A stretch of 64,000 nucleotides of DNA from Candidatus Calditenuis fumarioli (GCA_030059665.1 JANVYR010000001.1:320001-384000), one strand, 5' to 3'; positions 1,463 through 16,616 are shown, counted from the stretch's first letter. Made by a program: numbers and translations. Notes: a model not told the origin generated them from the letters alone.

Positions 1463-3157
1463 ATGGGCTACGACTTCGACGCGGTAGTGGTGGGAGCTGG
1501 GCCCGCGGGATCCGCCGCCGCGATGAAGATGGTTCGGAGGGGGCTTCAGGTCGCCCTCATCGAGAAGGGCCTCGTTCCCGGGAGCAAGAACGTCTCCGGT
1601 GGCGTGCTCTACCTCGATTACATACCCGGTTACAGCGTGGAGGACGTCTTCCCCAACTTCGAGAAGGAGGCGCCCCTCGAGCGGAGGATAGTGGAGCACG
1701 AGGTCTACTTCGTCTCGGAGCCGGTGAGGAGGAACGGCGAGGCCGAATACAGGTTCAGGAGGATCGGTGAGAGGTCCCTGCTCACCTCGCTCGGCCTCAC
1801 AGGCCTCACCGAGACCGGAGGGAGGGCGTACTCAGTTCTCAGGGCGAGGCTAGACAGGTGGATGGCAGAACGCGTTGCCGAGGAGGGTGGGGTGCTGAAT
1901 ACCTGCACTTCGGTCGAGGAGCTGCTCTTCGAGGACGGTCGCGTGGTCGGCGTCAGGACGAACCGGGAGGAGGTGAGGGCGAAGGTCGTGATAGACGCCT
2001 CCGGCGTGACGTCGAACCTGGTTGTCCAGGCGGGCCTGAGGTCCAAGCTCGAGCCGGAGCAGGTCTACCACGGCGTCAAGCACGTCTTCAAGCTGAAGGA
2101 GGAGGAGATCGAGCGGAGGTTCGGGGTCGGGAAGGGCGAGGGCAAGGCGATCTACTACGTCGGTCCCTTCATGAAGGGCGTTGAGGGCGGCGCCTTCATC
2201 TACACCAACCGCGACACGCTGAGCGTCGGCATCGTCATCTCCCTCAGCTCCTTCCTCAAGAGGGCAGCCGAGGATCCGATCAACGTGGGCAAACCGGTCG
2301 ACCTCCTCGAGGAGTTCGAGGCCCACCCGGCCGTATCGGGGTTGCTCGAGGGTGCGGAGCTGGTCGAGTACTCCGCGCACAACATACCGAAGGGTTACAG
2401 GACGATGCTGGAACGCCCGTACAGGCCCGGCTTCCTCGTTGCGGGTGACGCTCTGGGAGCCTTCGTCAAGATCGGTGCCCTCATCGACGGGATGCGGAGG
2501 GCCATAGCTACCGGGATCATGGCCGCCGAGACGGCAATAAGAGCGATCGAGTCCAACAGGTTCGACGAGGCCACCTTCTCGGTTTACAGGGAGCTGCTGA
2601 GGCCGATCTACCGCGACGTCTCGAGGTCAGGGAGGAGCGCTGCGCTGAGCGAGGGCAGCATAGGTTACCGGCTCGCGCCGAAGCTGATGCTGATGGGTTC
2701 GAGCGTCGGGAAGGGACCGGCGAAGGCCGATGAGCAGAACCGATCGGATGCGCTGAAGAAGATCCAGTCGCTGACGGCTCTGCTGCAATACGACGAGGAC
2801 CACCATTACAGCCACATCAAGGTCGACACCGAGAGGGCCTCGAGCGCTCCCCTGAAGCTCTGGGTCCCGGCATGCCCCGTCAACTGCTACACCATCCTGC
2901 TCGAGAAGGGCGTCTTCGCATCCTTCAGGGACCTGTACCTGTTCAACCTCGAGCGGCTGAGGGCCAACGGGGTCCCGGAGGAAGAGGCCATGAGGAGGGC
3001 TCTCAAGGAGACGGTCGACGACATCAGGAGGGCGAGGCTAAGGTTCGACTACGTGGCGTGCGTCGCCTGCGGAACGTGTGGGGTGATAGGCCCACCAGGC
3101 ACGGTTGACTTCGGCCACGAGAGGGACGGACACGGCGTGATCTTCAGGTACGGCTGA
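1463..3157 (+). CDS. fixC: FixC flavoprotein (ETF:quinone oxidoreductase-like) fused to a C-terminal FixX ferredoxin
   Basis: N-terminal VVVGAGPAG, second FAD motif LVAGDA, C-terminal CPVNCY and ACVACGTC; in operon with fixAB. Confidence 0.9.
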   Translation: MGYDFDAVVVGAGPAGSAAAMKMVRRGLQVALIEKGLVPGSKNVSGGVLYLDYIPGYSVEDVFPNFEKEAPLERRIVEHEVYFVSEPVRRNGEAEYRFRRIGERSLLTSLGLTGLTETGGRAYSVLRARLDRWMAERVAEEGGVLNTCTSVEELLFEDGRVVGVRTNREEVRAKVVIDASGVTSNLVVQAGLRSKLEPEQVYHGVKHVFKLKEEEIERRFGVGKGEGKAIYYVGPFMKGVEGGAFIYTNRDTLSVGIVISLSSFLKRAAEDPINVGKPVDLLEEFEAHPAVSGLLEGAELVEYSAHNIPKGYRTMLERPYRPGFLVAGDALGAFVKIGALIDGMRRAIATGIMAAETAIRAIESNRFDEATFSVYRELLRPIYRDVSRSGRSAALSEGSIGYRLAPKLMLMGSSVGKGPAKADEQNRSDALKKIQSLTALLQYDEDHHYSHIKVDTERASSAPLKLWVPACPVNCYTILLEKGVFASFRDLYLFNLERLRANGVPEEEAMRRALKETVDDIRRARLRFDYVACVACGTCGVIGPPGTVDFGHERDGHGVIFRYG

Positions 3158-3173
3158 GGCTGGGGAAGGCAGA

Positions 3174-3866
3174 TCACCTCCTCAGGACAGCCCTCTCTAG
3201 CGCGCAGAGGGCCCTCGATACCGCCACCCAGGCATCTAGCCTCTGGTCGTGGAGCTTCACCCTGACGTCGGCGGCGCTCATCACCTCCTCGCTGAAGTCT
3301 CCGTGGGGGAAGCAACCGACCACCAGTATCACTCCGCCGTCTCCCATCAACTCCGCCAGCCTCTCTTCCCTCAGCTCCTCGCCCGACTCGTGAAGGAGCA
3401 CCACCGGATTCCTCCCCAGCGCCTCAAGGACCTCCCGGAAGCTCCTCCGCTCCACCTCGAGCAGGACCTTCCCCTCCTCGGTCACGACCCTGCCGTCCCT
3501 GAAGAGGGCCTCCATCAGCCCCTTGAACCGGTCGTAGACCCGCGGCAACCGGGTCGAGGGGTCTATCCTGATCCAGTAGCCCGAGATCGTGTGGACGTGG
3601 ACCGACATCAGGCCTGCGAGGTTCAGCGGAGACCCGAGGGCCTCGAGCAGTGTGACGTGGACTATGTCCGGCCTGCCCCTCTTCTCCGCATTAGAGAGCT
3701 TCCTCATCGCCCTGTGGTGGTACGAAGAGTCGAGGAGCGTCCACCTCGGAGACTTCCCCCGCCTGCGGCAGTAGGCCCTGACGTCGGGCTCCGACCAGAG
3801 CTCCGGAGGTATCAGCTCGAGCGACGCCTCCGCCAGCAGGAGCTTGACCGGTGGAACGGCAGCCAC
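3174..3866 (-). CDS. nep1: Nep1/Emg1 SSU rRNA pseudouridine N1-methyltransferase (SPOUT)
   Basis: LLAEASLELIP, LDSSYH, KRGRPDIVH, RLPRVYDRFKGLM, VGCFPHGDF. Confidence 0.93.
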   Translation of the reverse strand: MAAVPPVKLLLAEASLELIPPELWSEPDVRAYCRRRGKSPRWTLLDSSYHHRAMRKLSNAEKRGRPDIVHVTLLEALGSPLNLAGLMSVHVHTISGYWIRIDPSTRLPRVYDRFKGLMEALFRDGRVVTEEGKVLLEVERRSFREVLEALGRNPVVLLHESGEELREERLAELMGDGGVILVVGCFPHGDFSEEVMSAADVRVKLHDQRLDAWVAVSRALCALERAVLRR

Positions 3867-3986
3867 CCCACGTTTCAGAGAGTTCAGGCACCGCTAAAAC
3901 GGAACCGCCGTGAGCTTGCACGTCCAGCTCAGCACGTCAAAAACCTCTCATCGGAACCCTTTGGCCCTCAAACCCACGGGTAAAAA

Positions 3987-4077
3987 GGCGCTGATGAAGG
4001 TGATCTTGACGGGAAGGTTCTGGCCCTGATCGAGCTGCCGATCGCGGGGCTGATGTCGGAGGAACCGGTGGAGGTGA
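3987..4077 (+). repeat. Rearranged exact copy of two segments of the adenine deaminase gene
   Basis: 3987-4005 equals 48038-48056 (19 nt). 4005-4077 equals 48240-48312 (73 nt). Compared base by base. Confidence 0.92.
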
Positions 4078-4139
4078 ACAGTCTCTTCGAGTATCTAGAG
4101 ATGACGTAGCGTGTGTTCTTGTAAAGGGGAGGGTAGTCT

Positions 4140-4433
4140 ATGGCTCGCTCTAGGAGACCTTACGTAATCCTGAACACGGCCATGACGTTGGATGGCAAGA
4201 TAGCAACTAGGACGGGCGACTCGGAGATCTCTTGTATGGACGATAAAATCGAATTGCATAAGTTAAGGGCCTCGACTGACGCCGTAATGGTCGGGATAAA
4301 CACGGTCTTGGTTGATAACCCTCGCCTCTCGGTCAGGTATGTCGAGGGTAACCCAACACGGTCTCGGTTTACGACGTCACAGGTACGGTTGACAGCATCG
4401 TCATCTCCAAGTTCAAGAACAGGCAGGAGGTGA
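4140..4433 (+). pseudogene. N-terminal fragment of RibD-C/ArfC-type pyrimidine reductase
   Basis: RPYVILNTAMTLDGKIA...LRASTDAVMVGINTVLVDNPRL. Similarity ends at ~4350; has a good RBS (GGGGAGGG). Confidence 0.8.
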
Positions 4434-4612
4434 GCAACTTCACCAAGAGGCTCCTGAGCATCCCGTACGTCGAGCGGACCAACACCCACGTCGTCCTGAC
4501 GGTCGTGAAGGAGGACCCGAGGGGGCCGCTGCTGAAGGAGCTGGGGAGGGCCCTGCCGGGAAGGGAGAGGATGCCGGAGGAGCCGAGGGAGGAGGTGGGA
4601 GGTTACGGGTAA
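4352..4612 (+). pseudogene. C-terminal fragment of an Lrp/AsnC regulator (ligand-binding domain), no start codon
   Basis: Frame from 4352 reads PNTVSVYDVTGTVDSIVISKFKNRQEVSNFTKRLLSIPYVERTNTHVVLTVVKED, typical of archaeal Lrp C-domains. Confidence 0.7.
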
Positions 4613-4936
4613 GGAAGCCTAGATGGATGAAGGTAGAGATAGTCCAAAGGCATCCATTACAACCTATTCCCGAACGCGGCGTGAACCTGAGACGAAGGAG
4701 CGCCAGCAGGAGAAGAAAAGGGTGTAGAACTTGAGGAATTAGGTCATATGGCAACTCAAGAAAGGAAGAAAAGGGAGGGGTTGGATCGTTTGTTTCGTCA
4801 GCTTCTGGCGTCCTCGGTCGTTTGGGGCCCGGGCCGGGGTTAAAATTGAGTGGGTTACGCCTCGCCGCCTCGCGGCGGGGGCGGTTTTACCCGTGAAGTA
4901 CCCGAACCCGGGTCTCCCCCGCCGAGGCGCCCGGCC

Positions 4937-5800
4937 CTAGCCCTGTCGCTGAGGAGCTGGTATGCCCTCGGACCTCTCGTGGGTCTCCTGCCTAAATCTG
5001 AACATCAGCCATATCCTGAACGCTGTCGCCTCTTCGTCCCGCTGTGTCGGTTTATCGTTTATCAGCGCCATCGTCAATCTGTTCAATGCCTTTCTCGCCA
5101 CGTGGCTGAACTTCTTGTTCTTTTTCGACTTCCTGCTTTTTCTGAACAGTCCCAAATATGCCCGAACTTTCGCGAAAGGCTTCCTGAAGTCAACGTATGT
5201 CAGCAACTCAGCCAATGCTTCCCTTGCCATCAAATGGCCTTCGCCTGAAATCCCCAACTCCTCAGCAATGTAATCGAAATACGGATACCTTCTCCGAGCC
5301 TCCTCTACGATAACCTCGGCTAACATCCCCTTCTCCATCTGCGCCTGCCTCACCAGTCTTCTAAGACTCTCTTGTGCCACCGGAGATGCCGCCTTAAGCT
5401 GGTTCTCCAGCTGCTGCTTCGTCCTTTCGATCGACCTGTAGGTCGAGATCAACCTCCGCATCTCTAGGAAATTTTCGTCTACCCTTCGGTACCATTTGCA
5501 CTCAATGGTCATCATCGCTTTGATGTCGCTCTTCGTGGACTTAGGCAATCCCATCCTCTCTCTCATCTGCTTGACCAGACGCAATCGCCGAAGATAGTAG
5601 ACCTCCACTCCCTTCCTCAGTAATTGTATGAAGGAGTCCGTAAGCATCACCGGTATCGTATCGACATATACCCGATCGCCAGGTCCTGCTGGGATTTCCG
5701 CCGGATCATCGATATGTTTGAAGCTCTTGCCGTCAGTTGTATAGGTTATCCTAAATCCGCTTTCATCCTTCTTCCTGTGTACGTCGCAATAGAACCTCAT
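4937..5800 (-). CDS. IS110-family (DEDD/RuvC-like) transposase/recombinase-like protein
   Basis: N-terminal YCDVH, then VYVDT, KSTKSD (KTDxxD-like), coiled coil ending LENQL, GISG, KVRAYLGL and ARKAL; same order as in IS110 proteins. Confidence 0.7.
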   Translation of the reverse strand: MRFYCDVHRKKDESGFRITYTTDGKSFKHIDDPAEIPAGPGDRVYVDTIPVMLTDSFIQLLRKGVEVYYLRRLRLVKQMRERMGLPKSTKSDIKAMMTIECKWYRRVDENFLEMRRLISTYRSIERTKQQLENQLKAASPVAQESLRRLVRQAQMEKGMLAEVIVEEARRRYPYFDYIAEELGISGEGHLMAREALAELLTYVDFRKPFAKVRAYLGLFRKSRKSKKNKKFSHVARKALNRLTMALINDKPTQRDEEATAFRIWLMFRFRQETHERSEGIPAPQRQG

Positions 5801-6099
5801 CTCACATCACCGTATTTCAGCAACGTAAACAGGAGCACCAATACCAGCATCACCTGTAGTAGCGTCAGAAGAACCATTGCTGGCGTTAGCGGTAGCCTCG
5901 TCGAGACTACGGCCACCATTAGCGCCATAGCTATCGTCCTTTTCTTCCAGAGCGACCAGGGCCATCGAGGCCTCCTCTCCCCCCTGACCTCGAGGATCTC
6001 CAGGACCCTCGGGGCGGGATACTTCCCAACCCCGAGGACCCTTGGAGGTGGGAGGGATAGGGGAGATACCTCGATGACCCTCGGTTCGTTGTCGGTCAT
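5797..6099 (-). CDS. Small membrane protein, hypothetical
   Basis: RBS GAGGTGA; hydrophobic C-terminal half; stop codon overlaps the next ATG (ATGA). Confidence 0.6.
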   Translation of the reverse strand: MTDNEPRVIEVSPLSLPPPRVLGVGKYPAPRVLEILEVRGERRPRWPWSLWKKRTIAMALMVAVVSTRLPLTPAMVLLTLLQVMLVLVLLFTLLKYGDVR

Positions 6100-6110
6100 C
6101 GCCGATCACC

Positions 6111-6458
6111 TCAATCTATCGGTATTGGGGGGATGGGTTCGTCCCCCCAATACATCTGGTCTTCGTCCTCTACCCACCCTTCCTCGTCTTCCTCCCATTC
6201 CTCTTCGAATTCTTCCTCCTCCCATTCATCCTCGAAGTCCTCTTCCTCCTCCCACTCCTCTTCTTCCCATTCCGCCTTGAAGGTCGTCTGTTTCGTTTCC
6301 TCGTAGCTGATGTATGTCAATTGGATATACCTCGTCCTGAATCTGCGCCTCCTGGGCTTTGTCCTCAGCATTGTAGAGCATAGCGGGCATCGAACGTCGT
6401 CTGTTTCGATGAACTGTTGGCATCTGCTGCAGAATCGGCGGTTGTCGCCGTATCTCAA
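6111..6458 (-). CDS. Zinc-finger protein (CxxC-x9-CxxC) with acidic Trp-rich tail
   Basis: Likely TTG start at 6458 after GGAGGGG. FCSRC...RCPLC followed by EWEEEEWEEEEDFEDEWEEEE. The 6791 start of the ORF track runs through hairpin DNA. Confidence 0.65.
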   Translation of the reverse strand: MRYGDNRRFCSRCQQFIETDDVRCPLCSTMLRTKPRRRRFRTRYIQLTYISYEETKQTTFKAEWEEEEWEEEEDFEDEWEEEEFEEEWEEDEEGWVEDEDQMYWGDEPIPPIPID

Positions 6459-6479
6459 AGCTCTTCCCCCTCCCCTGAT

Positions 6480-6830
6480 GGCTAACCCCCCGTCATAGGC
6501 CCCCGGGCCAGGGACCGTGATGGGTGGGGCATGGGACCCAGTCGTCGTTCGTCCGGGGAGCCCAACCCCCGGCGGGTCGGCTCGTCGGTCGTCCACAACC
6601 CTGCCTGCACCCGAGGGGACGCCGCCCTTCCCCCCGGGGAGGCTCCTCCTACCGGGCATGTTCCCACCCGGAGAAGAGACGCCCCCACCGGGACCCCGAG
6701 GAGTGGAAACTCCCCGGGGCGTTCGACAGGCGAATCCCCGGGAATGCTCCCGGGGTTGGACTCTCCCCTCGGGACCCCCAACCCGAGCCACCAGGCCCGG
6801 GCTGGGGGCCCGAGCCCGGTGGCTTAAAAA
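6480..6830 (+). ncRNA. Candidate structured non-coding RNA or origin-like hairpin array
   Basis: Stems 6553-6558/6567-6572; 6694-6719 with GGAA tetraloop; perfect 8-bp stem 6736-6743/6748-6755; stem 6786-6792/6818-6824 before an A-run. Confidence 0.4.
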
Positions 6831-6872
6831 ATGATCAAACGGGTTGGGGGTTGTCGTCGTTCTGTCGGTAAA

Positions 6873-7106
6873 TCAGCCGAGGCTTCTGATGAGCAGCGGC
6901 AACAGTAGTGCCATCACCAGTAGTATTATCGGAGGTAGCAGGTCTATCGGCCACATCATCCCTTGCTTCCTAACGACCGCCCGCAGTTGTTTACCGCATC
7001 TCGAACAGCGTAGCGTCTTGGTACCATCTTTGCACTCCTCGCGGGCCTCTTCCCGCTCCTCCCGCTCCTCGATCTCCCGGGCCCCTGCCCGAGTGTCATG
7101 ACCGCT
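6873..7106 (-). pseudogene. Open frame with CxxC motif plus C-terminal TM helix, lacking an in-frame start (or 28-aa TM peptide from ATG 6959)
   Basis: Reads EECKDGTKTLRCSRCGKQLR...MMWPIDLLPPIILLVMALLLPLLIRSLG; no ATG/GTG/TTG before 6959. Confidence 0.35.
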
Positions 7107-7320
7107 TCATCCCGGAGGTCGCCGCCCGAAACCTACGGCATAGGGGCCTTTCGGGCCTTCCCTCCTTCATGACACTCCCCGGGCTCCTCCGGGATTACCT
7201 GACTACGGGTTCCCCGGCGCAAGCCGGGTCCCGTCCCTCCCGGAGGCCCCCACCTCCCCCTCAGGGGCAAACCCCCGGGGGAGGAAAGGAGCCTCCCCCG
7301 GAGGCCGCCCTCAAGGGGTC
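7100..7320 (+). ncRNA. Candidate structured non-coding RNA
   Basis: CCGGC-GCAA-GCCGG (7214-7227) nested inside ACGGG/CCCGT; GGGG-CAAA-CCCC (7264-7275) nested inside longer G/C stems. Confidence 0.35.
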
Positions 7321-7450
7321 ATTGATGGGGAAGCAAAAAATGGAGGGAAATGGTTTACGGGAGGAGCGGAGTCGTGGGATTATCGAGGATCATCTGAGGT
7401 CGTCGGACGGTGCGTGGCCTCGTCGCCCTACCTCGTCCCCATCCCCGGGC

Positions 7451-7711
7451 TCATATGAACCCGAGGAGGAGCGGGACGACGAGGTGGGTGAACACCAACG
7501 CCAGAACGCCGCCTATCGCCAGCCTGATTCCGTACCCCTCCTGGCGGAAACCGATCGCCAGGAGGAGTCCGCCGAGGATCATCGCTATACCAAGCGCGTC
7601 GATGATCGGCGTCGCCACCTCGAACAGCGTCAACATCACCTGTTTGATGACTTGAGCAACCTTGCTGCCCACCTCGCTGGCCGAGATCAGAGCCGTGACC
7701 AGGGAGATCAT
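7451..7711 (-). CDS. VirB2/TrbC/CedA1-like two-TM pilin-type protein
   Basis: 86 aa from ATG 7711 with G-rich RBS. Amphipathic N-helix, then two hydrophobic helices separated by a short charged loop (GFRQEGYG). Confidence 0.55.
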   Translation of the reverse strand: MISLVTALISASEVGSKVAQVIKQVMLTLFEVATPIIDALGIAMILGGLLLAIGFRQEGYGIRLAIGGVLALVFTHLVVPLLLGFI

Positions 7712-8002
7712 CGGTCCCCCACCCCCACCCCTCGCCACCGCACGGTCCAGGGGCCTTCTTCGCCTCTCCCGCGTGCCGGACCACGCGGGGTCGGGCTCCG
7801 GCCCCCTTCACTCCGTGGGCTGGCTCGGGGCACGGTAATCGCCCCGACTCCCTTCGACGGGAGGACAAGTAGGGGAAAGAAAGGGGGTGAGGTTGCGCTT
7901 GCATCGATCATCAGCTGGAGTCTTCATCCTCGGCTTTGAGCGTCGGTGGCCACCGGCCCGGACTCTCCCGGTCGGAGGGACGCGGGCTTGGCGAGCTGGG
8001 GG

Positions 8003-9592
8003 TTATTCGCCCCAGCCTGCGACCGTCGTGTCCCTCCTTGTCAGTGGGGTCACCTTCATTACCCACCCCGGCCTAGACCACCCTGAGCGGGTGGGGTGGT
8101 CTGGCTCGGGGCGGGTTCGGGTGTCCCCGCCTCCGCGCCAAGCCTGTTCTTCATCCCCACCCTCTCGGGGTCCAGGCCGGGGCTTCGTCTTCGAGTATTG
8201 CAGCGGATTCCTGATCCCCTTAGGACACAGCTTACCGTCCTCTATGCAGAGTCCGTGGGCCTTCATCGTCTGGCAAGAGGGCGGTTTGTATTTTATCCGA
8301 GATCCCCTCTCGCCGGCGATATGCTCTATCTGGTACCTGGCTATCTTCTCGTCGAAGTCAGGCCTCTCCTGTAGCATCGCCAATATGTCCTCCTTGGAGT
8401 ACCCACGGTTTATCATGAAGGCCGTTATCGAGAACAGCTCCGCATGCGATGCCTCAGAAATCCTCGCCCTTATCGCCTTCATGCACGGCGGCCAGTCCTC
8501 GCTCGTCGTCTCCGTCGTCTCAACGTACCGGCTTCTTACCCTTATCAGCTCTTTGAGTGTGTCCTCCGCGGCCTCACGGAGAACGTCGGGTAGTAAATTA
8601 ATCTTCGGCCTTACTCCCTCGAATCTGGCGAACGCCTCGGCGATCCTCTCCCTCGCCAGCCGGGCCAGCTCCGCCTTCGTGAGATGAACATAGCCTCTGT
8701 GCACCGTCCGGTTTACGAGGCGCCACTCGGGGTTCCGCAAAAGGTTCCTCGCGGCCGTCAAGTAGTCAGCCAGCGGAACCTTGTAGTCGTAGCCCTCGAT
8801 CTCCGAGGGCTCGGCGTCCAGTTTCGTCCTCCTTATCAGTTCCCTGAACGTCTCCTCGTCCTCGGCCAGCATCTGCCGCTCTATTCGGGAGGCCTCGGCG
8901 AGCGCCCAGCGCTTCAGCAACCAATCGTCGTTAATAGCTAAGCAGATCACCTTTGCGACGATGAAGCTCAGCGCCTCGGTAAGGGGATCGTCCAGAGACT
9001 GGACGATCCCCCGCTCCCCGCGTTGTAACGCGTCGATTAACCTCTCTTTTGCTCTTGTCGCTGTCGCCTCGTCGACGTCGGCGACGTTCCAGGCTTCGAT
9101 TAATTGGCGGTATTCGTCCAAATATTGGAATTTGCTGAGCGTTTGAAGGGTGATAACTAGACCCCTCGGTTTAACCGTCTCCTGCCGCGCTTCCTTTTCT
9201 TCCTTTTGCGCTACCTCTTCGGACTTCGACGCTAACAGCTTTCGTCTCAAAATCTCGATCGCCTCGTCGTCCAGCTCCGCTAGGACCTGCTCGACCTTCT
9301 GCCTTCTCATCTCTTCAAACTCCTCCTCGTTCGGTTCTCTCGGCCTATCCCATCGATACATGGGATAGGCCCGTTTGAAGCTCTCCAGAAGCTCGTCGTA
9401 GGTCAGCGACGGGTCGTAGTGACCCAACCAGTCGATCTCTAGTGGGTCGGCGCGGGGGTTGAACTCCATGAAACGCCTTATCAATGCCCTCAGCGTTACG
9501 TAGTCCGACTTGCCGTACCTGTCGTAGATCTGTCTGTGGACTCTCTTCGTGACCTCCTCAAGGATTTCCTCATCGACCGTCATCCGAACCAC
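8003..9592 (-). CDS. priL: DNA primase large subunit (PriL) with ~140-aa N-terminal extension
   Basis: SFIVAK...KRWALAEA, WRLVNRTVHRGYV, Fe-S ligands WPPC, PPSC, GLC and C, and PDFDEKIARYQIEHIAG. Confidence 0.88.
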   Translation of the reverse strand: MVRMTVDEEILEEVTKRVHRQIYDRYGKSDYVTLRALIRRFMEFNPRADPLEIDWLGHYDPSLTYDELLESFKRAYPMYRWDRPREPNEEEFEEMRRQKVEQVLAELDDEAIEILRRKLLASKSEEVAQKEEKEARQETVKPRGLVITLQTLSKFQYLDEYRQLIEAWNVADVDEATATRAKERLIDALQRGERGIVQSLDDPLTEALSFIVAKVICLAINDDWLLKRWALAEASRIERQMLAEDEETFRELIRRTKLDAEPSEIEGYDYKVPLADYLTAARNLLRNPEWRLVNRTVHRGYVHLTKAELARLARERIAEAFARFEGVRPKINLLPDVLREAAEDTLKELIRVRSRYVETTETTSEDWPPCMKAIRARISEASHAELFSITAFMINRGYSKEDILAMLQERPDFDEKIARYQIEHIAGERGSRIKYKPPSCQTMKAHGLCIEDGKLCPKGIRNPLQYSKTKPRPGPREGGDEEQAWRGGGDTRTRPEPDHPTRSGWSRPGWVMKVTPLTRRDTTVAGWGE

Positions 9593-9734
9593 CTCTCGAG
9601 GAGCATCGGTACGTCAGTAACCGCTACCGTCCCCTCCACCCTCTCCCGGAACCCTCGCGGCCCCTCCTCCGGGCTCTCGCCCGGGCCCCTCGCCCAAAGG
9701 GCGGGGTATGTACCCACCACGGGGTAAATCGGGG

Positions 9735-11420
9735 CTATCGCGGCAGGAGAGGGAGGAGCTTCCGGTAGCGATCATCCACGAGGAGAACCAGAGCGTTATC
9801 TTCGGGACCCCTGATCGCCCTCCCGGCGGCCTGAACCGCGGAGTAGACCGCAGGGAGGACGAGGCCGTGGAGCCTCGCAGAATCCTCGTCCCCTAACAGC
9901 TCCTTCAGTCTCCTCAGCAGCTTCTCCCTCCTCGGCGTGGGTGCGGCGAAAGGCACCCCTATCAGCAGCACGAGCTCAGCAGATAGGTCAATCCCTTCGG
10001 CGAGCCTGCCGTTGAAGACGCTGACCAGCGCTTTGGAGTCCATCTCGAAGGCTCTGGCGACCGCTTCAACCTCCTCCTGCGTCATACCTTGCTTCTCGGC
10101 CAGGACCTCTGCCTCGGCCCTTTTCAGCACCTCCTCGAGGACCTCGTGGCTCGGCAGGAAGACGAGGGACCTCCTCCCTGCTACGAGCTTCAGCAGCCAG
10201 GCGGCGTCCGAGTAGAGCTTCTCGTCCCGTTTCTCGAACTTCGTCGTCAAACCCTTCACCACGGCCGCGCTCAGGTTGTCTCCGAATGGCCATCCGGCCC
10301 TCAGCAACGTCATCTCCCGGCCTACCAGCCTTTCCAGAAGCTCCGCGTTGACCGTCGCGCTCATCGTGACCGTCGCCCTCCACTTGTCGTAGACGGCCTC
10401 GAGCACTTCTTTGGGGTCAGCCATAGCCTCCAGCCTCAGGGACCTCCCCTCCCTCACCAGTAGGGGTCTGGAGCCCCCGAGGCTCGCCTTGAAGTCGGCT
10501 ACCGTAAGCACATGGCTCGCCGGAGCGAGGTTCTCCCTAAGCTTAAGCTCCTGTATCTCGAAGCCCGCCTCTCGGAGCTCCGTGTAAGACGGTAATACGT
10601 CATCGACCTCCGCTTCGCCGTCTCCGGGAAGCAATGACTCGTAGTGGTTGGCGGCCCTCTCAAGCTCTGATGAGATCTCGTTAAACCCGTACTTCCTTGC
10701 CTCCCTTGCCGCCCGCTTCAGCGTCCTCAGACTGATGGAGTCCTTGACCATCGACAGCGCCTCACTGACAACGTGCTGTGCCTCGTCCAGAACCAGTATC
10801 GTCCTCTCCTTCGACCAGCGCCATTTGGCCAGAAGCCATCCGAGGAATCCGAGTTGCCTGTGGGTAGCGACCAACCCCCGTGCGGTCGGCATCGAGATAG
10901 TGAGTACCTCATAGGGGCACGTCAACGTCCTCCGTCCCAAGTCCTTGAGTTCGCTGACCGTCATCGGCCTCCCCACCGCCCGAGGTTTCCCGGGCCAGTA
11001 GGGGCATCTGTGGGCGTATCTGGTCGCCCTGCACGCGGCGTTGAACCGTCTCTGATCTATTTGGGCTATTACCTCGTGAAGACACAGTAGCTTCCTCCCG
11101 AAGAGCGGCAGCATGCCGGTTTCCAGCGAGACATGTCTAACTTGCGAAGCAGTCCTCGTAAGCCAAAGCACCCTCAGATTGTTCTCCTCCGCGTACTTGG
11201 CTACGGCGGCGTAGACCGCGGCGGTCTTACCCAGACCGGTGGGCGCCTCGACGACCACGTCCCTGTTGCCGTCGCTCAGCAGTTCGTAGAGCCTGTTGGC
11301 GAGGTCGGCTTGGTATTTCCTCGTCGTCGGATGCGGGAAGTGCCTCTTCAACGCAGCCGTCAGCTGGACGTCCTCTTCGAGGTCAACCACCCTGACCTTC
11401 CCCGGCTGGGGGATAGACAC
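9735..11420 (-). CDS. XPD/Rad3/DinG-family Fe-S SF2 helicase
   Basis: EAPTGLGKT, four-Cys Fe-S region ending CPYE, LDEAQH, MSAT, LAEGIDL and QAAGRAIR. Confidence 0.9.
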   Translation of the reverse strand: MSIPQPGKVRVVDLEEDVQLTAALKRHFPHPTTRKYQADLANRLYELLSDGNRDVVVEAPTGLGKTAAVYAAVAKYAEENNLRVLWLTRTASQVRHVSLETGMLPLFGRKLLCLHEVIAQIDQRRFNAACRATRYAHRCPYWPGKPRAVGRPMTVSELKDLGRRTLTCPYEVLTISMPTARGLVATHRQLGFLGWLLAKWRWSKERTILVLDEAQHVVSEALSMVKDSISLRTLKRAAREARKYGFNEISSELERAANHYESLLPGDGEAEVDDVLPSYTELREAGFEIQELKLRENLAPASHVLTVADFKASLGGSRPLLVREGRSLRLEAMADPKEVLEAVYDKWRATVTMSATVNAELLERLVGREMTLLRAGWPFGDNLSAAVVKGLTTKFEKRDEKLYSDAAWLLKLVAGRRSLVFLPSHEVLEEVLKRAEAEVLAEKQGMTQEEVEAVARAFEMDSKALVSVFNGRLAEGIDLSAELVLLIGVPFAAPTPRREKLLRRLKELLGDEDSARLHGLVLPAVYSAVQAAGRAIRGPEDNALVLLVDDRYRKLLPLLPR

Positions 11421-11509
11421 AGGGCAGGGGCCTTAGCCCCTGCTAGCCCACTCGGCGCTCCCCTCCAAAGGAGGGTGCGTTTATCCCGCCAGCCTATGGG
11501 GGTCTCACC

Positions 11510-11752
11510 TCACAGGTATCCGAAAATCTTTAGCAGTATCGCGCTGATCAACGTCGTCACCCACAGCCAGAAATAGCGATCTATCCGCGACTCGAGCCTT
11601 TCGAACCTCCTGTCTATGTTCTCCAGTATCTTCCTGTGCTCCTCGACGATCACCTCGAGCTTTGCGATCCTCTCAGCCAACTCCATCACCATTCGTGTAA
11701 GCTCCTCCGGCGTTAATGGGTCTCCGGCCTGATTTATCTCTTCTGACCTCAC
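11510..11752 (-). CDS. Small coiled-coil protein with C-terminal TM anchor
   Basis: Heptad region IAKLEVIVEE...FERLESRID followed by YFWLWVTTLISAILL; start overlaps the upstream stop. This architecture is common in archaeal viruses and plasmids. Confidence 0.65.
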   Translation of the reverse strand: MRSEEINQAGDPLTPEELTRMVMELAERIAKLEVIVEEHRKILENIDRRFERLESRIDRYFWLWVTTLISAILLKIFGYL

Positions 11753-12480
11753 CTGCCATCACCCCTGTGAGACTCGTAGTGCTTCTTCAGCTCCTCCTCA
11801 GAGGGGCAGAGGAGGCCGCAGCTGGGGCAGAAGTAACCCTGTCCCGTGCTGACGACCTCCCCCACCCCCCGGAGGAATGTCCACTCCCATCTGCATGACG
11901 CCGGATGCTTCTCAGCGACGTGCGCCGTTGCTTCAGCTAGGGTCCCGAACCCTGCCCCGCAGTAGGGGCAGAGCCAGGACCCGTCCTTGTTCTCGAAGAA
12001 CGTCTTCAGCTCCCCCACCCAGGCCACCTTGACCCGGGCGGGGGTGGTCTCGTCAACGTCGGCCGGGTGCCTCCCTCCCAGCCAGCCCCGTCTTATGACG
12101 ACGGGGCGGGCCGAAAGGGAGTACCTCTCCAGAACGTCGGCACACCCTTTGCAGAGGGGCCCTGCGTATGAGGGCAGGGCCGCGGGAGCCCCGCACCTCG
12201 CGCAGAACCCCTCTACCCTTTTCGATTCGGCGGGTACCTCATCGACCTTTGGCTTGCACTCCGCCTGCTTCAGCTTCAGGGCCTCCGTGAGCTTGGCCGA
12301 CGCTCCGCAGCGTGTGCATCGTAGCATGCTGATCGCCTCGCCCGGCACAACCACTTCTTCGACCTCGTGCTCCCCGAGGGGGAAGGTCCTGTGCCTCTCT
12401 CCCTCAGGGGTTTCGACTTGTTCCTTTTGCACCTTCGTCTCCTCTTCCTCGAACCTTTCCTCTTCCTCCTCGAGCCCCAA
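11749..12480 (-). CDS. Multi-zinc-finger protein (CxxC pairs and two C2H2-like fingers); probably the frameshifted C-terminus of the upstream ATPase
   Basis: CTRC, CARC, CKGC, CPYC...H...H, CPSC...HYESH. Frame is open from 12657. Confidence 0.7.
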   Translation of the reverse strand: MGLEEEEERFEEEETKVQKEQVETPEGERHRTFPLGEHEVEEVVVPGEAISMLRCTRCGASAKLTEALKLKQAECKPKVDEVPAESKRVEGFCARCGAPAALPSYAGPLCKGCADVLERYSLSARPVVIRRGWLGGRHPADVDETTPARVKVAWVGELKTFFENKDGSWLCPYCGAGFGTLAEATAHVAEKHPASCRWEWTFLRGVGEVVSTGQGYFCPSCGLLCPSEEELKKHYESHRGDGR

Positions 12481-12587
12481 CCCCTCGACCCCCTGCTCAG
12501 GGGCCTCGGAGAGGGGCTCCTCGGACTCGACGTCCTCCTCCAGTCTCAGCTCGACCCTCCCGGGGCCTGCCTCCGACCGCCGCTCGA

Positions 12588-14276
12588 TTACACGAAAACC
12601 CCTCCCCCTCTCGCGGCGATCAGGGCAGACCCTTTCGGGGTCTCCTCTTCGACCTTCTCAGCCTCCTCAACAGTCACCTCCTCTCCCTCTTCGGTCTCCT
12701 CCTCGACAGTCATCTCAGCCCCCTCCTCGGCTTTCCCCCACGGAAGGCGCCACGGGATTGGCCACGTCCCCGTTGCCGTGCGGACCAATAGTAGTGACGC
12801 CGTCCCGCGGCTGGGGGCCTCGGAGGGAGTGGTTGGAGTGCTGACATCGGCTTCCTCTTCGAAGTCTTCGTCTTCCTCCAGCTTCAGCTCCACGGAGCCT
12901 GTAGGCTCCGGGGGCTGGGCGGGCTCCCCACCTTTTTCAGCCTCCTCGACCCGCCCCTCGACCTCAACCCCCTCCGGCAGGGAGGGGGTGGGGGTCTCTG
13001 GAGCGGACACCTCTCCCTCCTCGACCTCCTCACCTTGCTCCTCAGCCCTTACTTCCTCAGTTACTGTTGGCTTCGTGAGCATAAGCTTGATCGGCTTAGG
13101 TTTCGGTAATCGTCTTAGATGGAGTCTGCGGTGATCGTAGATGATAAGCTTCGCCTTAATCAGCTTCTTCCACATCTTCTCCGCCTCCTCGAGGCTCGCC
13201 CTGAAGAGGAACCTCTCTAGGACGAACCTCGGGAGGCTGTCGGGGGAAGTGACGACGATAGCTCCCACGTCTTTCGTTATTGCTATCGGCATCAGCTCGG
13301 GATCGGGGCATATTAGAACCACCCCGACCCCAAAACCTCTCAACTCATAGACGATCCGCTCTCCTACCGTCGGTGGTTCGTCAGGAGTTCTCGGCCTGAT
13401 GTAGTTCTGCGCCTCCTCAGCAACTATCAACTCTCCCAGCCTCGCCTTTAGCCCCCCTTTCAGCGCGTCCTTGTACTTCCTCACTAGGATCGCGATCGCA
13501 TATGCAGACTTCAGGTATACTGAGGGGAGTTGGCTGAGGTCGTAGACGACGACGGAGTCGCTTCCTCTGACGTTCACCGCAGGCCTCTCCTCGTCTATCA
13601 GCAACACGTAAAGCCTCCGGATAAGCGCCAGGTACATGTTGGCTTCAGCGTATCTCCTTTCGATGCTCGCGAGGTCGGCGGCCCTCGTCAGCTCGCGTAT
13701 TACTTCGGACGTCGTCGGAATCCCCTTCTCGTAGAGTTTGACCATGGTCCTCAGCAGAAGCGTCGCGCTCGCCGGCGACACCTCCGCCACGTCTTTGCTC
13801 ATCTCGCGTATCATCTCCACGGCGTAAAGCGCCTTCTCCTCCGCAGTTTCTCCGGGGACGTCCCAGATATTGATCTTCCTTACCACAGACGCTCCCTTGA
13901 GGTAGGAAACGTACTCGCCCTTCCAGTCGATGACCGTCATTTTGATCCCCTTTTTGACCGCCTTAGCAATTACCTCCTTCGCAACCGTGGTCTTCCCCGA
14001 CCCCGTCGGCCCCAGCACGACCATGTGTCGTGCCAAGGCCGACAGGGGCACCACCCCCAGCACCCTCCTAGCCCTCAATGCCCGGAGGAAGAGGAGGGCA
14101 GGGGTGATGGTCGTTATCGCCGCGATCGCTGCGATTGTTGCGATTGGTACTACATTGACCCTCGGCAGTAGCTCGGGTACCCCTTGGACGATTCCGTACT
14201 TCGCCCAGTCCCTCATACCCTCCTGTACCACGTGCAGGAGGGCAAGGGGAACGTCTATCTCGTAGACGGCGACCAC
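12588..14276 (-). CDS. HerA/VirB4/TraG-like (DUF87-type) P-loop ATPase with N-terminal TM segment and acidic Pro-rich tail
   Basis: HMVVLGPTGSGKTT, IDWKGEY, Walker B IVAEEAQNY. Start uncertain (14276 or 14216). Confidence 0.82.
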   Translation of the reverse strand: MVAVYEIDVPLALLHVVQEGMRDWAKYGIVQGVPELLPRVNVVPIATIAAIAAITTITPALLFLRALRARRVLGVVPLSALARHMVVLGPTGSGKTTVAKEVIAKAVKKGIKMTVIDWKGEYVSYLKGASVVRKINIWDVPGETAEEKALYAVEMIREMSKDVAEVSPASATLLLRTMVKLYEKGIPTTSEVIRELTRAADLASIERRYAEANMYLALIRRLYVLLIDEERPAVNVRGSDSVVVYDLSQLPSVYLKSAYAIAILVRKYKDALKGGLKARLGELIVAEEAQNYIRPRTPDEPPTVGERIVYELRGFGVGVVLICPDPELMPIAITKDVGAIVVTSPDSLPRFVLERFLFRASLEEAEKMWKKLIKAKLIIYDHRRLHLRRLPKPKPIKLMLTKPTVTEEVRAEEQGEEVEEGEVSAPETPTPSLPEGVEVEGRVEEAEKGGEPAQPPEPTGSVELKLEEDEDFEEEADVSTPTTPSEAPSRGTASLLLVRTATGTWPIPWRLPWGKAEEGAEMTVEEETEEGEEVTVEEAEKVEEETPKGSALIAARGGGVFV

Positions 14277-14969
14277 CTCCGTTACATACCCAGCCTCGGC
14301 TACTACAGGATACCGGAAATCGACGTCCCGCTCGATTACCTGCTATCGAGGATAAAGGGTAGCGGGATGGATACGGAGAGCATCGACCACGTCTATGATT
14401 ATTTCGGCAACAGGAGGATCCTGATCGAGGTCCCGGAGGAGGAGATAGAGAGGGAGATGGAGCAGAACAGGCTCAGGAAAGAATGGGAAGCCAAGATCGC
14501 CGAAAGACTCCAGAAGTGCACGCTCCTCTGGCAAAGCGATAAGGTGCGGGCCTACCTGCTCGACGACGAGGAGCTCGCCGGGGTGTTTTTAGATGCGGTA
14601 AGCGTTCAGATGGTGAAGGATCTGGGCAGACTCATCGTTATCGCCGGGCCATATTTTGACGAGCCATACAGGGTCGCCTCCCTGAGCATCCATATGCCGA
14701 CCAAGGTCCTCGCCGCGAAATCTTTGCTTGAGAGGAGAGGAGTTCCGGGAACTCTCACGGTAAAGAACGAGGGGGTGCCGGGACCGAAATACCTGATCAG
14801 GCTTACCTTTAGACACCTCGACCCGCTCGGATACTGCACGCTCTACCTCGATCCGGACAAGAAATGCGTAGAGATGGCACCCAAGGCGAGGGTCATCTAC
14901 GAGGACGGGAAGCTCGTGCTGATAGACGACGAAGCGGTGGAGGAGCTGATGAGGGAGAGGGGAGCTTAG
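14184..14969 (+). CDS. Hypothetical protein (true start uncertain, possibly ~14367)
   Basis: Long ORF with protein-like composition; no motif recognised. Confidence 0.6.
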   Translation: MDDSVLRPVPHTLLYHVQEGKGNVYLVDGDHLRYIPSLGYYRIPEIDVPLDYLLSRIKGSGMDTESIDHVYDYFGNRRILIEVPEEEIEREMEQNRLRKEWEAKIAERLQKCTLLWQSDKVRAYLLDDEELAGVFLDAVSVQMVKDLGRLIVIAGPYFDEPYRVASLSIHMPTKVLAAKSLLERRGVPGTLTVKNEGVPGPKYLIRLTFRHLDPLGYCTLYLDPDKKCVEMAPKARVIYEDGKLVLIDDEAVEELMRERGA

Positions 14970-15008
14970 GCCCAGCCCGTATTTATTCCTCGTTTCAGTT
15001 TTTATTTC

Positions 15009-15812
15009 GTGATGATCCGCCTACCTGTCCAGTACTGGAGATTCTTGATCAGGTCATTTCTCGACGAAGGCGCAGACCGCGTCTTTTATGATCAGGGCAG
15101 GCTCCAATCCCTCAGCGTAGACAGAGTCTCCCTGATCAGAGCTTCTATCCACGACCATGACTGTGGCCGTATGGAACTCGACCTCGACAAGCCGAACGAA
15201 CTGCTGAAGAAGGCCCGTGTTAAAAGAGGCTATATGACGGTAAGGAGGATCGGCGAAGGTAAGGAAGAGGAGGAGGTAGAGGTAAGGATAACGGGAGACC
15301 AATGCCTGACGACAACGTTCAAATATAAGAGAGAGGTCGGGTCATCTTTCAATCCCGACGTCACGAGGTTGAACTTTACAGACGGATTCAGGATAGGAGC
15401 TGAGGCTTTAGCCCGCACATGCGAGGGCTTGAAGGACTGTGATATCATGTTTTTATATGTGGGGTCTAAGCTGTTTGTGGGAGGCAGACTGTTTGAAAGC
15501 CAACTAAGGTTCACCACGATCCCCACCGTTGCAGGTAACGGCTCGTTCTCGGCATTTGAGCCAAGCAGGTTGTGCAGGTTCTTGAGGAGGATAAGCGAGT
15601 TCTCCAGCGTCCTAACCGTCAGGCTCAAGACGGACGGCCCCATCTACATCCACGCTCCGACACCGTATTTCGACGTCGAGTTTATGCAGGCCCCGCGTGC
15701 CATCGCTTCCGACGACGTCAAGCTCCTGAAGGAGGTTCTAATTCAGGAAGGGGAGGCTCAGGCTATACCCGTCCTTGAGCAGTTGGTGGAGGCTAAACCA
15801 CAGACCGGATGA
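15009..15812 (+). CDS. Divergent PCNA-like sliding clamp
   Basis: LSVDRVSL (MDxSHVxL-like), ELDLDKPNELLKK, VRLKTDGPIYI and EFMQAPR match PCNA landmarks; ~35-aa C-terminal extension. Confidence 0.7.
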   Translation: MMIRLPVQYWRFLIRSFLDEGADRVFYDQGRLQSLSVDRVSLIRASIHDHDCGRMELDLDKPNELLKKARVKRGYMTVRRIGEGKEEEEVEVRITGDQCLTTTFKYKREVGSSFNPDVTRLNFTDGFRIGAEALARTCEGLKDCDIMFLYVGSKLFVGGRLFESQLRFTTIPTVAGNGSFSAFEPSRLCRFLRRISEFSSVLTVRLKTDGPIYIHAPTPYFDVEFMQAPRAIASDDVKLLKEVLIQEGEAQAIPVLEQLVEAKPQTG

Positions 15813-15973
15813 TGGGTTTTTACAGGCTCAGGGTTCGCATGGATCTGATCGGAGAGGCCCGGGACTCACCCGTCGCACCCGGAACGGCAGGAAACGGTCA
15901 AGTCTATGACCAATCTCAAAAATGTTTACCGGGTGAGGAAGGATGAGGGGCTTCAGGACTTGGATCCGATTGA

Positions 15974-16150
15974 AACGAGAACGGGTGCCTCCTCGACCCC
16001 TTCTGCGGAAGCGCCACCATCCCCATCGAGACAGCGCTCTACGCGATGCGGGTTCCGCCAAACGCCTACAGGCGGAGGGAGGAGATGCTGGTCTTCCGGC
16101 TCAAATTCATCGAGCAGGAGGCCCTTGAGGAGGCGTTGGCAAGGCTTAGG
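15974..16150 (+). pseudogene. Internal fragment of a Trm14/RlmL-type RNA methyltransferase
   Basis: Reads LLDPFCGSATIPIETAL (motif I) right after an in-frame TGA at 15971; runs in frame into the ParB-domain gene. Confidence 0.6.
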
Positions 16151-16180
16151 GTAAAATTGAGGTCGTCGCGACCCCTCCCG

Positions 16181-16609: not shown

Positions 16610-16616
16610 GCGGGTC

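What the first reader, a model, noticed from the sequence alone, without database searches (positions are those of the whole stretch)
4937..6458. IS110-like recombinase is the last gene of an island operon rather than a free-standing IS
Seen: three genes run on the minus strand: Zn-finger gene 6458-6111, TM gene 6099-5797 (its GAGGTGA RBS overlaps the preceding stop), and the recombinase, whose ATG overlaps the TM gene stop (ATGA, 5800-5797). There is no room for an IS left end upstream. Known: IS110-family enzymes are RNA-guided (bridge/seek RNA) recombinases that form circles and leave no target duplication. Inference: the enzyme could be the island's integrase/excisionase, which would explain the missing att repeats.
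Basis: partly seen in the sequence, partly recalled or inferred. Interest (0 to 1): 0.75.

Follow-up and report, generated by a model that had tools for sequence, protein, structure and literature searches.

The report
Guide-RNA insertion module of an archaeal island
A gene with no database family turns out to be a distant archaeal cousin of RNA-guided IS110/TasR enzymes, and the small RNA next to it spells out, on both strands, the exact 16-bp chromosomal site into which the surrounding 12-kb island was inserted, a site still intact in nine closely related genomes.

Summary
Three tightly packed minus-strand ORFs end in a 287-aa protein (4937-5800). It matches no Pfam, NCBIfam or PHROG profile. 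A confident model (pLDDT 93) matches only IS110 bridge recombinases (IS621, ISCro4) and TIGR-TasR: a RuvC domain, a coiled coil and a Nop-like domain. It lacks IS110's catalytic-serine hairpin.

Relatives are multicopy 1.0-1.1 kb elements in Caldarchaeales, each an ORF plus a 3' structured RNA. That RNA has covariation support and two hypervariable loop segments.

In the window, the RNA (4808-4937) carries two loops. One is CACGGGUAAAA. The other is CUCAAUUUUAACC. From these I predicted an empty site, CAC-GGGTAAAA-TTGAG. Nine contigs from other assemblies, 99.0-99.9% identical in the flanks, have exactly this uninterrupted site.

The island is 3986-16148 (12,163 bp), flanked by an 8-bp GGGTAAAA duplication. 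Its ends are shared with five intact and one decayed ~1.3-kb mini-element in the same genome.

Four caveats apply:
- The protein is not a Pfam-level IS110 member.
- It has no conserved serine.
- The 'no room for an IS end' argument fails.
- The RNA scaffold belongs to the paralogous 'B-type' lineage, so the acting enzyme is uncertain.

Earlier scan notes flagged this same stretch, not other DNA.

The parts
4937..5800 (-). P0001, a 287-aa RuvC + coiled-coil + Nop-like protein ('A-type'), a remote relative of IS110 and TasR
   Evidence: AF2 pLDDT 93.4. Foldseek: ISCro4/IS621 E 1e-6, TasR E 1e-5. VIA: TasR Z 16.1, IS621/ISCro4 Z about 14. No Pfam, NCBIfam or PHROG hit. D6, H8, D47, R72, K87 and D92 are invariant in 68 homologues.
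4808..4937 (-). Structured guide RNA candidate: outer stems, a large internal loop with two guide segments, and a central hairpin
   Evidence: Model R1 scores 134 bits here and finds only 6 copies in the genome, each 3' of a family gene. The scaffold is about 95% conserved and the two loop segments are hypervariable. The homologous architecture in relatives has covariation support.
4884..4900 (-). 5' guide loop l5, UACUUCACGGGUAAAAC. CACGGGUAAAA equals the + strand of the empty site
4838..4857 (-). 3' guide loop l3, UAACCCACUCAAUUUUAACC. CUCAAUUUUAACC is complementary to + strand GGGTAAAATTGAG at 12 of 13 positions
4614..4807 (-). Conserved 3' tail of the element, with a pyrimidine/T-rich terminator-like run, shared with B-type copies
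   Evidence: 78% identity to C1:607198-607530 over 343 bp.
3975..3985 (+). Chromosome/island junction: target flank CAC plus the first copy of the 8-bp core GGGTAAAA
   Evidence: Flank alignment to nine empty-site contigs ends exactly at 3985.
16149..16161 (+). Island/chromosome junction: second copy of GGGTAAAA plus target flank TTGAG.
   Evidence: Flank alignment to the empty-site contigs starts exactly at 16149.
3986..16148 (-). Integrated island, 12,163 bp, absent from nine 99.0-99.9% identical contigs
5797..6099 (-). TM ORF (100 aa). Its stop overlaps the P0001 start. No homologue was found
6111..6458 (-). Zn-ribbon protein with an acidic tail
   Evidence: Weak DZR/Zn-ribbon hits. Homologues lie within 2 kb of family genes in 3 relatives' loci (L048 E 2.5e-12).
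6480..6830 (-). G+C-rich (0.71-0.75) hairpin-dense non-coding block upstream of the three ORFs. Possible leader; function unknown
   Evidence: No Rfam match.
15009..15812 (+). Gene X (earlier notes called it PCNA-like) at the far end of the island
   Evidence: C-terminal remnants of 23-70 aa lie at the 5' side of five B-type mini-elements (B678, B232, B606, B49, B391) and at one further site, C1:746320-746415, by tblastn; B72 matches at the DNA level only.
15719..15964 (-). Conserved left-end segment shared with mini-element B678 and, in part, with the others
   Evidence: 81.7% over 246 bp to C1:678108-678348.
8003..14276 (-). Cargo: PriL-like (8003-9592), XPD-like helicase (9735-11420), multi-Zn-finger protein (11749-12480), HerA/FtsK-like ATPase (12588-14276)
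   Evidence: Pfam.
4005..4614 (+). Captured host-gene fragments inside the island end: a 73-bp copy of window 48240-48312; the RibD_C N-terminus (4140-~4390, the only RibD_C in the genome); the C-terminus of an Lrp/AsnC gene (4351-4614, 98% to C1:631462-631725)
15965..16150 (+). Captured internal fragment of a THUMP RNA methyltransferase gene (96.8% to C1:738002-738187), just inside the other island end

Best explanation
P0001 and the 130-nt RNA directly 3' of it form the RNA-guided insertion module of a 12.2-kb plasmid-like island, in a Caldarchaeales archaeon.

The protein has a RuvC-like domain with conserved acidic residues, a coiled coil and a Nop-like RNA-binding domain. That is the architecture shared by IS110 bridge recombinases and TIGR-TasR. 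It lacks IS110's serine hairpin.

The RNA has one large internal loop with two programmable segments. One segment equals the top strand of the chromosomal site and the other equals the bottom strand. The two overlap on an 8-bp core. Together they specify CAC-GGGTAAAA-TTGAG, in the spacer between nep1 and a ParB-like gene.

The island inserted there precisely, and GGGTAAAA is now present at both junctions.

Shown here: the fold; the family and its multicopy mobile behaviour; the RNA structure and its hypervariable loops; the island borders; the empty site; the guide-to-site match.

Inferred: that the RNA is made and bound by the protein; the chemistry; that P0001, rather than a B-type paralog, acted. 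On chemistry, an RNA-guided staggered cut or strand exchange over the 8-bp core would fit the 8-bp duplication. TasR is reported to leave 8-nt overhangs (PMC12045711).
For: Fold. AF2 model pLDDT 93.4. The only significant PDB matches are ISCro4/IS621 and TasR. Atlas feature and structure neighbours are IS110-family clusters.

Family. 223 homologues, nearly all from Caldarchaeales. More than 25 copies in one MAG and 4 in C. subterraneum, in unrelated contexts. Shared DNA is the ORF plus about 150 nt 3'.

RNA. 36 pairs, 93.7% paired. 17 pairs show compensatory changes, against 6.5 +/- 1.6 in shuffles (0 of 500). In this genome six copies share a ~95% identical scaffold but differ in both loop segments.

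Site. GGGTAAAA occurs only 3 times in 64 kb (0.34 expected): at the two junctions and in the RNA loop. l5 matches 11 of 11 and l3 12 of 13, on opposite strands.

Prediction and test. The empty site was predicted from the loops. It was then found uninterrupted in nine contigs 99.0-99.9% identical in the flanks, with the alignments overlapping by exactly the 8 bp.

Shared ends. Both island ends are shared with six ~1.3-kb mini-elements carrying a paralog; five of them also carry the same RNA scaffold.

Other copies. A second copy (B72) has a 14-nt loop match 266 nt past its RNA, conserved in a metagenome ortholog. B232 has 10-nt matches on both sides.
Against: No expression or activity data exist.

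The RNA scaffold next to P0001 is the 'B-type' of this genome. The covariance model of the A-type RNA scores 22-88 bits next to all 5 family genes of a related genome, but only 11.9 bits (E 0.18) here. The protein-RNA pair therefore looks chimeric, and a B-type paralog could be the enzyme.

P0001 and its clade lack the third DEDD acid (T89; Ala in most) and any conserved serine.

No guide complementary to the island's own ends (donor side) was found.

Guide-junction matches are clear for only 2-3 of 6 copies here. In other genomes they are only statistically enriched.

The MFE of the window RNA alone is not exceptional for its composition (z -1.6).
Confidence: 0.72

Rival explanations
1. The module is real, but the acting enzyme is a B-type paralog working in trans. 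P0001 would then be a secondary arrival: an A-type ORF that replaced the B ORF, or inserted beside the B-type RNA. It would be an orphan here, without its own RNA.
For: The A-type segment is exactly the ORF plus or minus about 12 nt, with G+C near 0.51. B-type homology starts 4 nt before the stop codon. The A-type RNA model hardly scores here but scores strongly next to A-type genes in G098. Four apparently intact B genes with this RNA scaffold exist in the genome (a fifth B gene lacks the RNA and a sixth is frameshifted).
Against: P0001 is intact and keeps every family-invariant residue. It is the gene physically coupled to the RNA whose loops match this island's site. The A-type and B-type RNAs share the same architecture.
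Confidence: 0.3
2. The protein is a TasR-like RNA-guided nuclease that only cuts the guide-specified site, for homing, retention or exclusion. Insertion itself would be done by host repair or by another, unrecognised recombinase of the island.
For: The best structural match is TasR (Z 16.1). There is no conserved serine and no beta-hairpin in the C-terminal domain. The 8-bp duplication equals the 8-nt stagger reported for TasR (PMC12045711).
Against: No TIGR-like array is present. The compact elements encode nothing else yet are multicopy in unrelated sites. No other integrase-like gene was recognised in the island.
Confidence: 0.2
3. This is an ordinary compact IS copy that happens to lie in an unrelated island. 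The match between the loops and the junctions is coincidence, or reflects an attP-like sequence rather than a guide.
For: Homologues elsewhere are free-standing 1.0-1.1 kb elements. Upstream loop matches in other copies are not above background.
Against: There are three and only three GGGTAAAA in 64 kb, sited at both junctions and in the loop. The flanking bases also match on opposite strands. The empty site was predicted before it was seen. The loop lies 890 nt inside the border, so it is not a split attP. Both island ends are shared with mini-elements that carry a paralog, and five of these also carry the same RNA.
Confidence: 0.05

Closest known systems
IS110-family bridge recombinases with bridge/seek RNA (IS621, ISCro4; PDB 8WT6, 9T56)
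   Same: RuvC-like N-domain, coiled coil and helical RNA-binding domain (Z about 14, TM 0.6). A cis-encoded structured RNA 3' of the ORF, as in the IS1111 group. Two guide segments of one internal loop pair with opposite strands of the target around a shared core. Compact multicopy elements that can expand into cargo-carrying islands (bioRxiv 10.64898/2026.08.14.744561).
   Different: No PF01548 or PF02371 match. No conserved serine or serine hairpin. Third DEDD acid missing in this clade. One internal loop instead of separate target and donor loops. An 8-bp core or duplication instead of a 2-nt core. No donor-end complementarity found.
TIGR-TasR (PDB 9MTY; Faure et al. 2025, PMC12045711)
   Same: Best structural match (Z 16.1, rmsd 3.5 over 246 residues). 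RuvC + Nop-like architecture without a serine domain. Dual guides that read both DNA strands. The reported 8-nt stagger matches the 8-bp duplication seen here.
   Different: No tandem array: one ~130-nt RNA per gene, embedded in long stems. The guides overlap on a core rather than abutting. The host is an archaeal mobile element rather than a phage or CPR bacterium. There is evidence of insertion, not only cleavage.
Archaeal Nop5 / box C/D sRNP
   Same: Coiled coil + Nop domain (1NT2_B Z 7.2 over residues 108-272). A pseudo-symmetric RNA with two guide segments. Some relatives' loops start with UGAUGG, which resembles a C box.
   Different: The RuvC acidic residues are conserved here, whereas Nop5's N-domain is inactive. 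The gene is mobile and multicopy. The targets are DNA junctions. K-turn motifs are not established.

Membership tests
IS110 family (bridge recombinase) | N-terminal DEDD_Tnp_IS110 profile (PF01548) | tested here: not met
   No hit for P0001 even at E <= 10. The best hit in the genome is a paralog at E 0.09, 12.5 bits, against a 29-bit cut-off.
IS110 family (bridge recombinase) | C-terminal Transposase_20 profile (PF02371) with the catalytic serine on a beta-hairpin | tested here: not met
   No profile hit. No Ser column is conserved in 68 homologues. A weak but colinear hhalign places the IS110 'SG' at K226, in a variable, low-pLDDT loop. The model has no strands after residue 107.
IS110 family (bridge recombinase) | DEDD catalytic tetrad | tested here: inconclusive
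   D6, D47 and D92 are invariant. The position equivalent to the third acid is T89 here, Ala in most of the clade, and Asp in the A2 and B paralogs. The residue mapping rests on a weak profile alignment.
IS110 family (bridge recombinase) | Overall fold: RuvC + coiled coil + helical RNA-binding domain | tested here: met
   Foldseek E 1e-6, probability 1.0, TM 0.6. VIA Z 13.9-14.1 over 253-257 residues. Atlas TM 0.72 to an IS110 cluster.
IS110 family (bridge recombinase) | Bridge RNA with two internal loops (target-binding and donor-binding) | tested here: not met
   The consensus structures show one internal loop with two guide segments. No donor-end complementarity was found. No Rfam family matched.
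TIGR-Tas (TasR) | Nop-domain protein fused to a RuvC nuclease | tested here: met
   9MTY_A Z 16.1. TasH Nop halves Z about 13 over residues 108-274.
TIGR-Tas (TasR) | Adjacent tandem interspaced guide-RNA array | tested here: not met
   Tandem Repeats Finder on 3000-17500 finds only short coding repeats. There is one RNA unit per gene.
Integrated mobile element (generic) | Precise presence/absence polymorphism with a defined target site | tested here: met
   Nine empty-site contigs, 99.0-99.9% identical in the flanks, with an 8-bp overlap of the flank alignments.

The most novel reading that the evidence does not exclude
This is an undescribed archaeal class of RNA-guided mobile elements. It comprises a serine-less RuvC-Nop protein and a single box-C/D-like dual-guide RNA that inserts DNA, from 1-kb elements to 12-kb islands, at a guide-specified site with an 8-bp duplication. 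It could be the living archaeal IS110-like lineage that Vaysset et al. (PMC11213020) inferred to be missing between IS110 and Nop5/box C/D RNPs. It would also be a compact one-loop programmable insertion system.
Probability: 0.35. Interest if true: 0.93.

Novelty: new variant of a known kind. Interest (0 to 1): 0.88.

Why it matters
RNA-guided DNA insertion is so far known from the bacterial IS110/IS1111 group and from CRISPR-associated transposons.

Here an archaeal family that profile searches do not see shows the same logic with a simpler RNA and without the serine nucleophile. This natural insertion event has all four pieces in hand: guide, target, empty site and product.

That makes three things directly testable:
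- whether a RuvC-Nop protein alone can insert DNA;
- how donor ends are chosen;
- whether this lineage links IS110, TasR and the Nop5/box C/D machinery.

It also assigns a function to hundreds of 'hypothetical proteins' in Caldarchaeales. It explains why their assemblies break at these loci. And it gives the 12-kb PriL/XPD/HerA island a mechanism of integration.

Tried and rejected
Profile and sequence searches gave nothing useful for P0001.
- Pfam, NCBIfam and PHROGs found no family.
- The PDB sequence and profile searches gave only a spurious coiled-coil match to RF2.
- hhalign against 10 canonical archaeal IS110 proteins gave a colinear alignment with probability below 2%. I used it only as a rough residue map.

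I first assumed from G+C that the host was Methanopyrus. That was wrong. TrpRS is 80-92% identical to Caldarchaeales MAGs, so no cross-phylum transfer is implied.

The empty site was not found by three routes:
- G098, a genome of the same family, has no synteny.
- An exact-pattern scan of JGI metagenome contigs gave 0 hits, although the pattern was right.
- For C. subterraneum copies, the neighbouring contigs in other assemblies simply end at the element.

It was found only through exact-protein look-ups of the flanking genes.

Second empty sites for B72 and B232 were not obtained, because the flanking proteins are not on record.

No relatives were found in viral contigs.

A suspected second syntenic island at C1:746-758 kb was rejected, because the HerA-like gene and the recombinase gene lie on opposite strands.

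One copy is the RNA loop l3 and the other is the target flank.

Loop matches upstream of other copies are at background level. Guide-site rules in other genomes remain only statistically enriched.

No donor-end guide was found, no TIGR array and no Rfam family.

Full report
**Observation.** The minus strand of 4937-6458 carries three close-packed ORFs, exactly as described.
- The Zn-ribbon ORF is 6458-6111.
- The TM ORF is 6099-5797. Its GAGGTGA overlaps the preceding stop.
- The 287-aa ORF (P0001) is 5800-4937. Its ATG overlaps the TM stop as ATGA.

G+C is 0.44-0.56 over this block, against 0.60-0.75 around it.

**What the protein is.** P0001 matches nothing in Pfam, NCBIfam or PHROGs, even at permissive thresholds. 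The PDB sequence searches give no real match.

An AlphaFold model built on 68 homologues is confident (pLDDT 93.4, pTM 0.87). Its only significant PDB matches are the IS110-family bridge recombinases ISCro4 and IS621 (Foldseek E about 1e-6, TM 0.6) and TIGR-TasR. By VIA-align:
- TasR scores Z 16.1, rmsd 3.5 over 246 residues.
- IS621 and ISCro4 score Z about 14.
- TasH aligns to the C-terminal half (Z about 13).
- Nop5 scores Z 7.2 on residues 108-272.

The protein atlas places it next to clusters carrying PF01548/PF02371.

The domains are a RuvC-like domain (1-107), a coiled coil and a Nop-like helical domain.

D6, H8, D47, R72, K87 and D92 are invariant across the family. No serine is conserved. 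The model has no beta-strands after residue 107. A weak but colinear profile alignment puts IS110's 'SG' serine in a variable loop.

The protein is therefore a relative of IS110 and TasR. It is not a member of IS110 by that family's defining features.

**Who else has it.** There are 223 homologues at E <= 0.01, nearly all 'hypothetical proteins' of Caldarchaeales.
- Ca. Caldarchaeum subterraneum has four copies in unrelated contexts.
- One MAG has more than 25 copies.
- Many copies sit on 1-2 kb contigs.

The DNA shared between copies runs from about 10 nt before the ATG to about 150 nt after the stop. These are compact, multicopy, IS-like elements.

The host of the window is itself a Caldarchaeales archaeon: its TrpRS is 80-92% identical to such MAGs. 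My early guess of Methanopyrus was wrong.

In this genome P0001 is single-copy. There are also three 'A2' paralogs (34-36% identical) and six 'B' paralogs (20-24% identical). No canonical IS110 is present.

**The RNA.** The 3' tails of 14 relatives fold into a common structure: three outer helices, one large internal loop and a central hairpin.
- 36 pairs, 93.7% of cells paired.
- 17 pairs show compensatory changes, against 6.5 +/- 1.6 in shuffles (0 of 500).
- Slid controls give 5-10.

Each side of the internal loop carries a 7-10 nt segment that differs even between copies that are 96% identical overall.

In the window's genome, a G+C-rich version of the same architecture follows P0001 (4808-4937) and five B-type genes. 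The scaffold is about 95% identical among the six. The two loop segments are unrelated between copies. A covariance model finds exactly these six copies.

The covariance model of the relatives' (A-type) RNA scores 22-88 bits beside all five family genes of a related genome. It scores only 11.9 bits in the window. P0001, which is A-type, therefore sits next to a B-type RNA. B-type DNA homology begins 4 nt before its stop codon.

**The island and its ends.** Window 4614-4943 is 78-84% identical to the 3' ends of the B-type mini-elements. Window 15719-15964 matches their 5' ends. These 5' ends contain C-terminal remnants of the island's outermost gene, 15009-15812.

Between these ends lie PriL-like, XPD-like, multi-Zn-finger and HerA/FtsK-like genes.

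Just inside both borders are fragments of host genes copied from elsewhere in the genome:
- the Lrp/AsnC C-terminus (98% identical);
- an internal piece of a THUMP methyltransferase gene (96.8%);
- a RibD_C N-terminus;
- a 73-bp copy of window 48240-48312.

This resembles the stepwise expansion recently described for bacterial IS110 elements (bioRxiv 10.64898/2026.08.14.744561, read).

**Guide and target.** The window RNA's loops are l5 UACUUCACGGGUAAAAC and l3 UAACCCACUCAAUUUUAACC.

CACGGGTAAAA occurs on the + strand at 3975-3985. GGGTAAAATTGAG, complementary to l3 at 12 of 13 positions, occurs at 16149-16161.

GGGTAAAA occurs only three times in the 64-kb window: at these two places and in the RNA loop. 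The expected number is 0.34, and no shuffle of 100 reached three.

From this I predicted the uninterrupted site CAC-GGGTAAAA-TTGAG.

**The empty site.** Exact-protein look-ups of the flanking nep1 and ParB-like genes then returned nine contigs from other assemblies (three NCBI MAGs, five SRA runs, one JGI metagenome). In them the two genes are neighbours, and the spacer reads ...AAACCCACGGGTAAAATTGAGGTCG....
- The flanks are 99.0-99.9% identical to the window.
- The left alignment ends at 3985 and the right one begins at 16149.
- The two overlap by exactly GGGTAAAA on the empty contigs.
- No island DNA is present in them.

The island is therefore 3986-16148 (12,163 bp) with an 8-bp duplication. 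It is a recent insertion.

The two guide segments read opposite strands of the site and overlap on the 8-bp core. This is the geometry of a bridge-RNA target loop or a tigRNA; the comparison rests on published work (PMC11208160, PMC12045711).

**Generality and limits.**
- Copy B72 has a 14-nt loop match 266 nt past its RNA. The match is conserved in a metagenome ortholog.
- Copy B232 has 10-nt matches in the expected orientation on both sides.
- The other copies are at background.
- In 14 relatives, cognate loops match the downstream flank more often than non-cognate ones: 4 of 14 against 9 of 182 for l3. No simple rule emerged.

No sequence complementary to the island's own ends was found, so how the donor is recognised is open. 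There is no TIGR-like array and no Rfam match.

**The upstream genes.** The TM ORF has no homologue anywhere that I searched. Zn-ribbon homologues occur within 2 kb of family genes in three relatives' loci, with varying distance and strand. Many relatives instead carry a C-terminal remnant of an SPPY DNA methyltransferase abutting the ATG.

The three-gene 'operon' is thus specific to this island. The GGTG-rich 10-14 nt before the ATG, which forms the last TM codons, is part of the conserved element end. So 'no room for an IS end' does not hold.

**Verdict.** The module (family protein plus dual-guide RNA) is very likely what placed this island. Whether P0001 or a B-type paralog was the enzyme, and whether the chemistry is recombinase-like or TasR-like staggered cleavage followed by joining, remains to be tested.

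I found no description of this family in the held literature.

Noticed in passing
G000 C2:492168-493121, C1:756747-757691 and C1:627176-627955 (loci L002-L004), with about 300 nt 3' of each: All three A2-type paralogs carry their own conserved ~150-nt structured 3' region with variable segments. Each ends about 150-200 nt upstream of what looks like the 5' end of a tRNA gene, just before a TTTAAAT box. This suggests targeting of tRNA promoters.
   Followed up: partly
L044, L047, L048, L050, L052, L018, L019 (about 50-600 nt upstream of the family ORF): Many Caldarchaeales copies are preceded by a C-terminal remnant of an SPPY-motif DNA methyltransferase gene, of variable length (about 15 to 200 codons). 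It ends ...HEYALVFRKVV* directly at the ATG. It could be either a preferred target or a co-mobilised piece.
   Followed up: partly
window 6480-6830: A 350-nt hairpin-dense non-coding block (G+C 0.71-0.75) lies between an A/T-rich box near 6830 and the Zn-ribbon ORF. It has no Rfam match and no copies elsewhere in the genome. It could be a leader, an origin or a second RNA.
   Followed up: no
window 4140-4433: This is the only RibD_C-family sequence in the 91%-complete genome. It is an N-terminal fragment (profile positions 1-76 of 197) carried inside the island.
   Followed up: partly
G000 C1:678344-679921 (B678): This B-type copy is frameshifted and is followed by an inverted partial duplicate of the 3' tail (679781-679921). 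It is a decayed or rearranged copy.
   Followed up: no
window 8003-9592 and G000 C1:827951-829153: The island's PriL-like gene has a 44% identical paralog elsewhere in the genome. The overlapping + strand ORF 7887-8687 also matches there. This may be the cellular priL or a second element.
   Followed up: no
L106-L108 (Logan contigs DRR101362, DRR101365, DRR101366): Contigs from other assemblies of C. subterraneum-like genomes end within or next to the family element. This fits repeat-induced assembly breaks at these loci.
   Followed up: no
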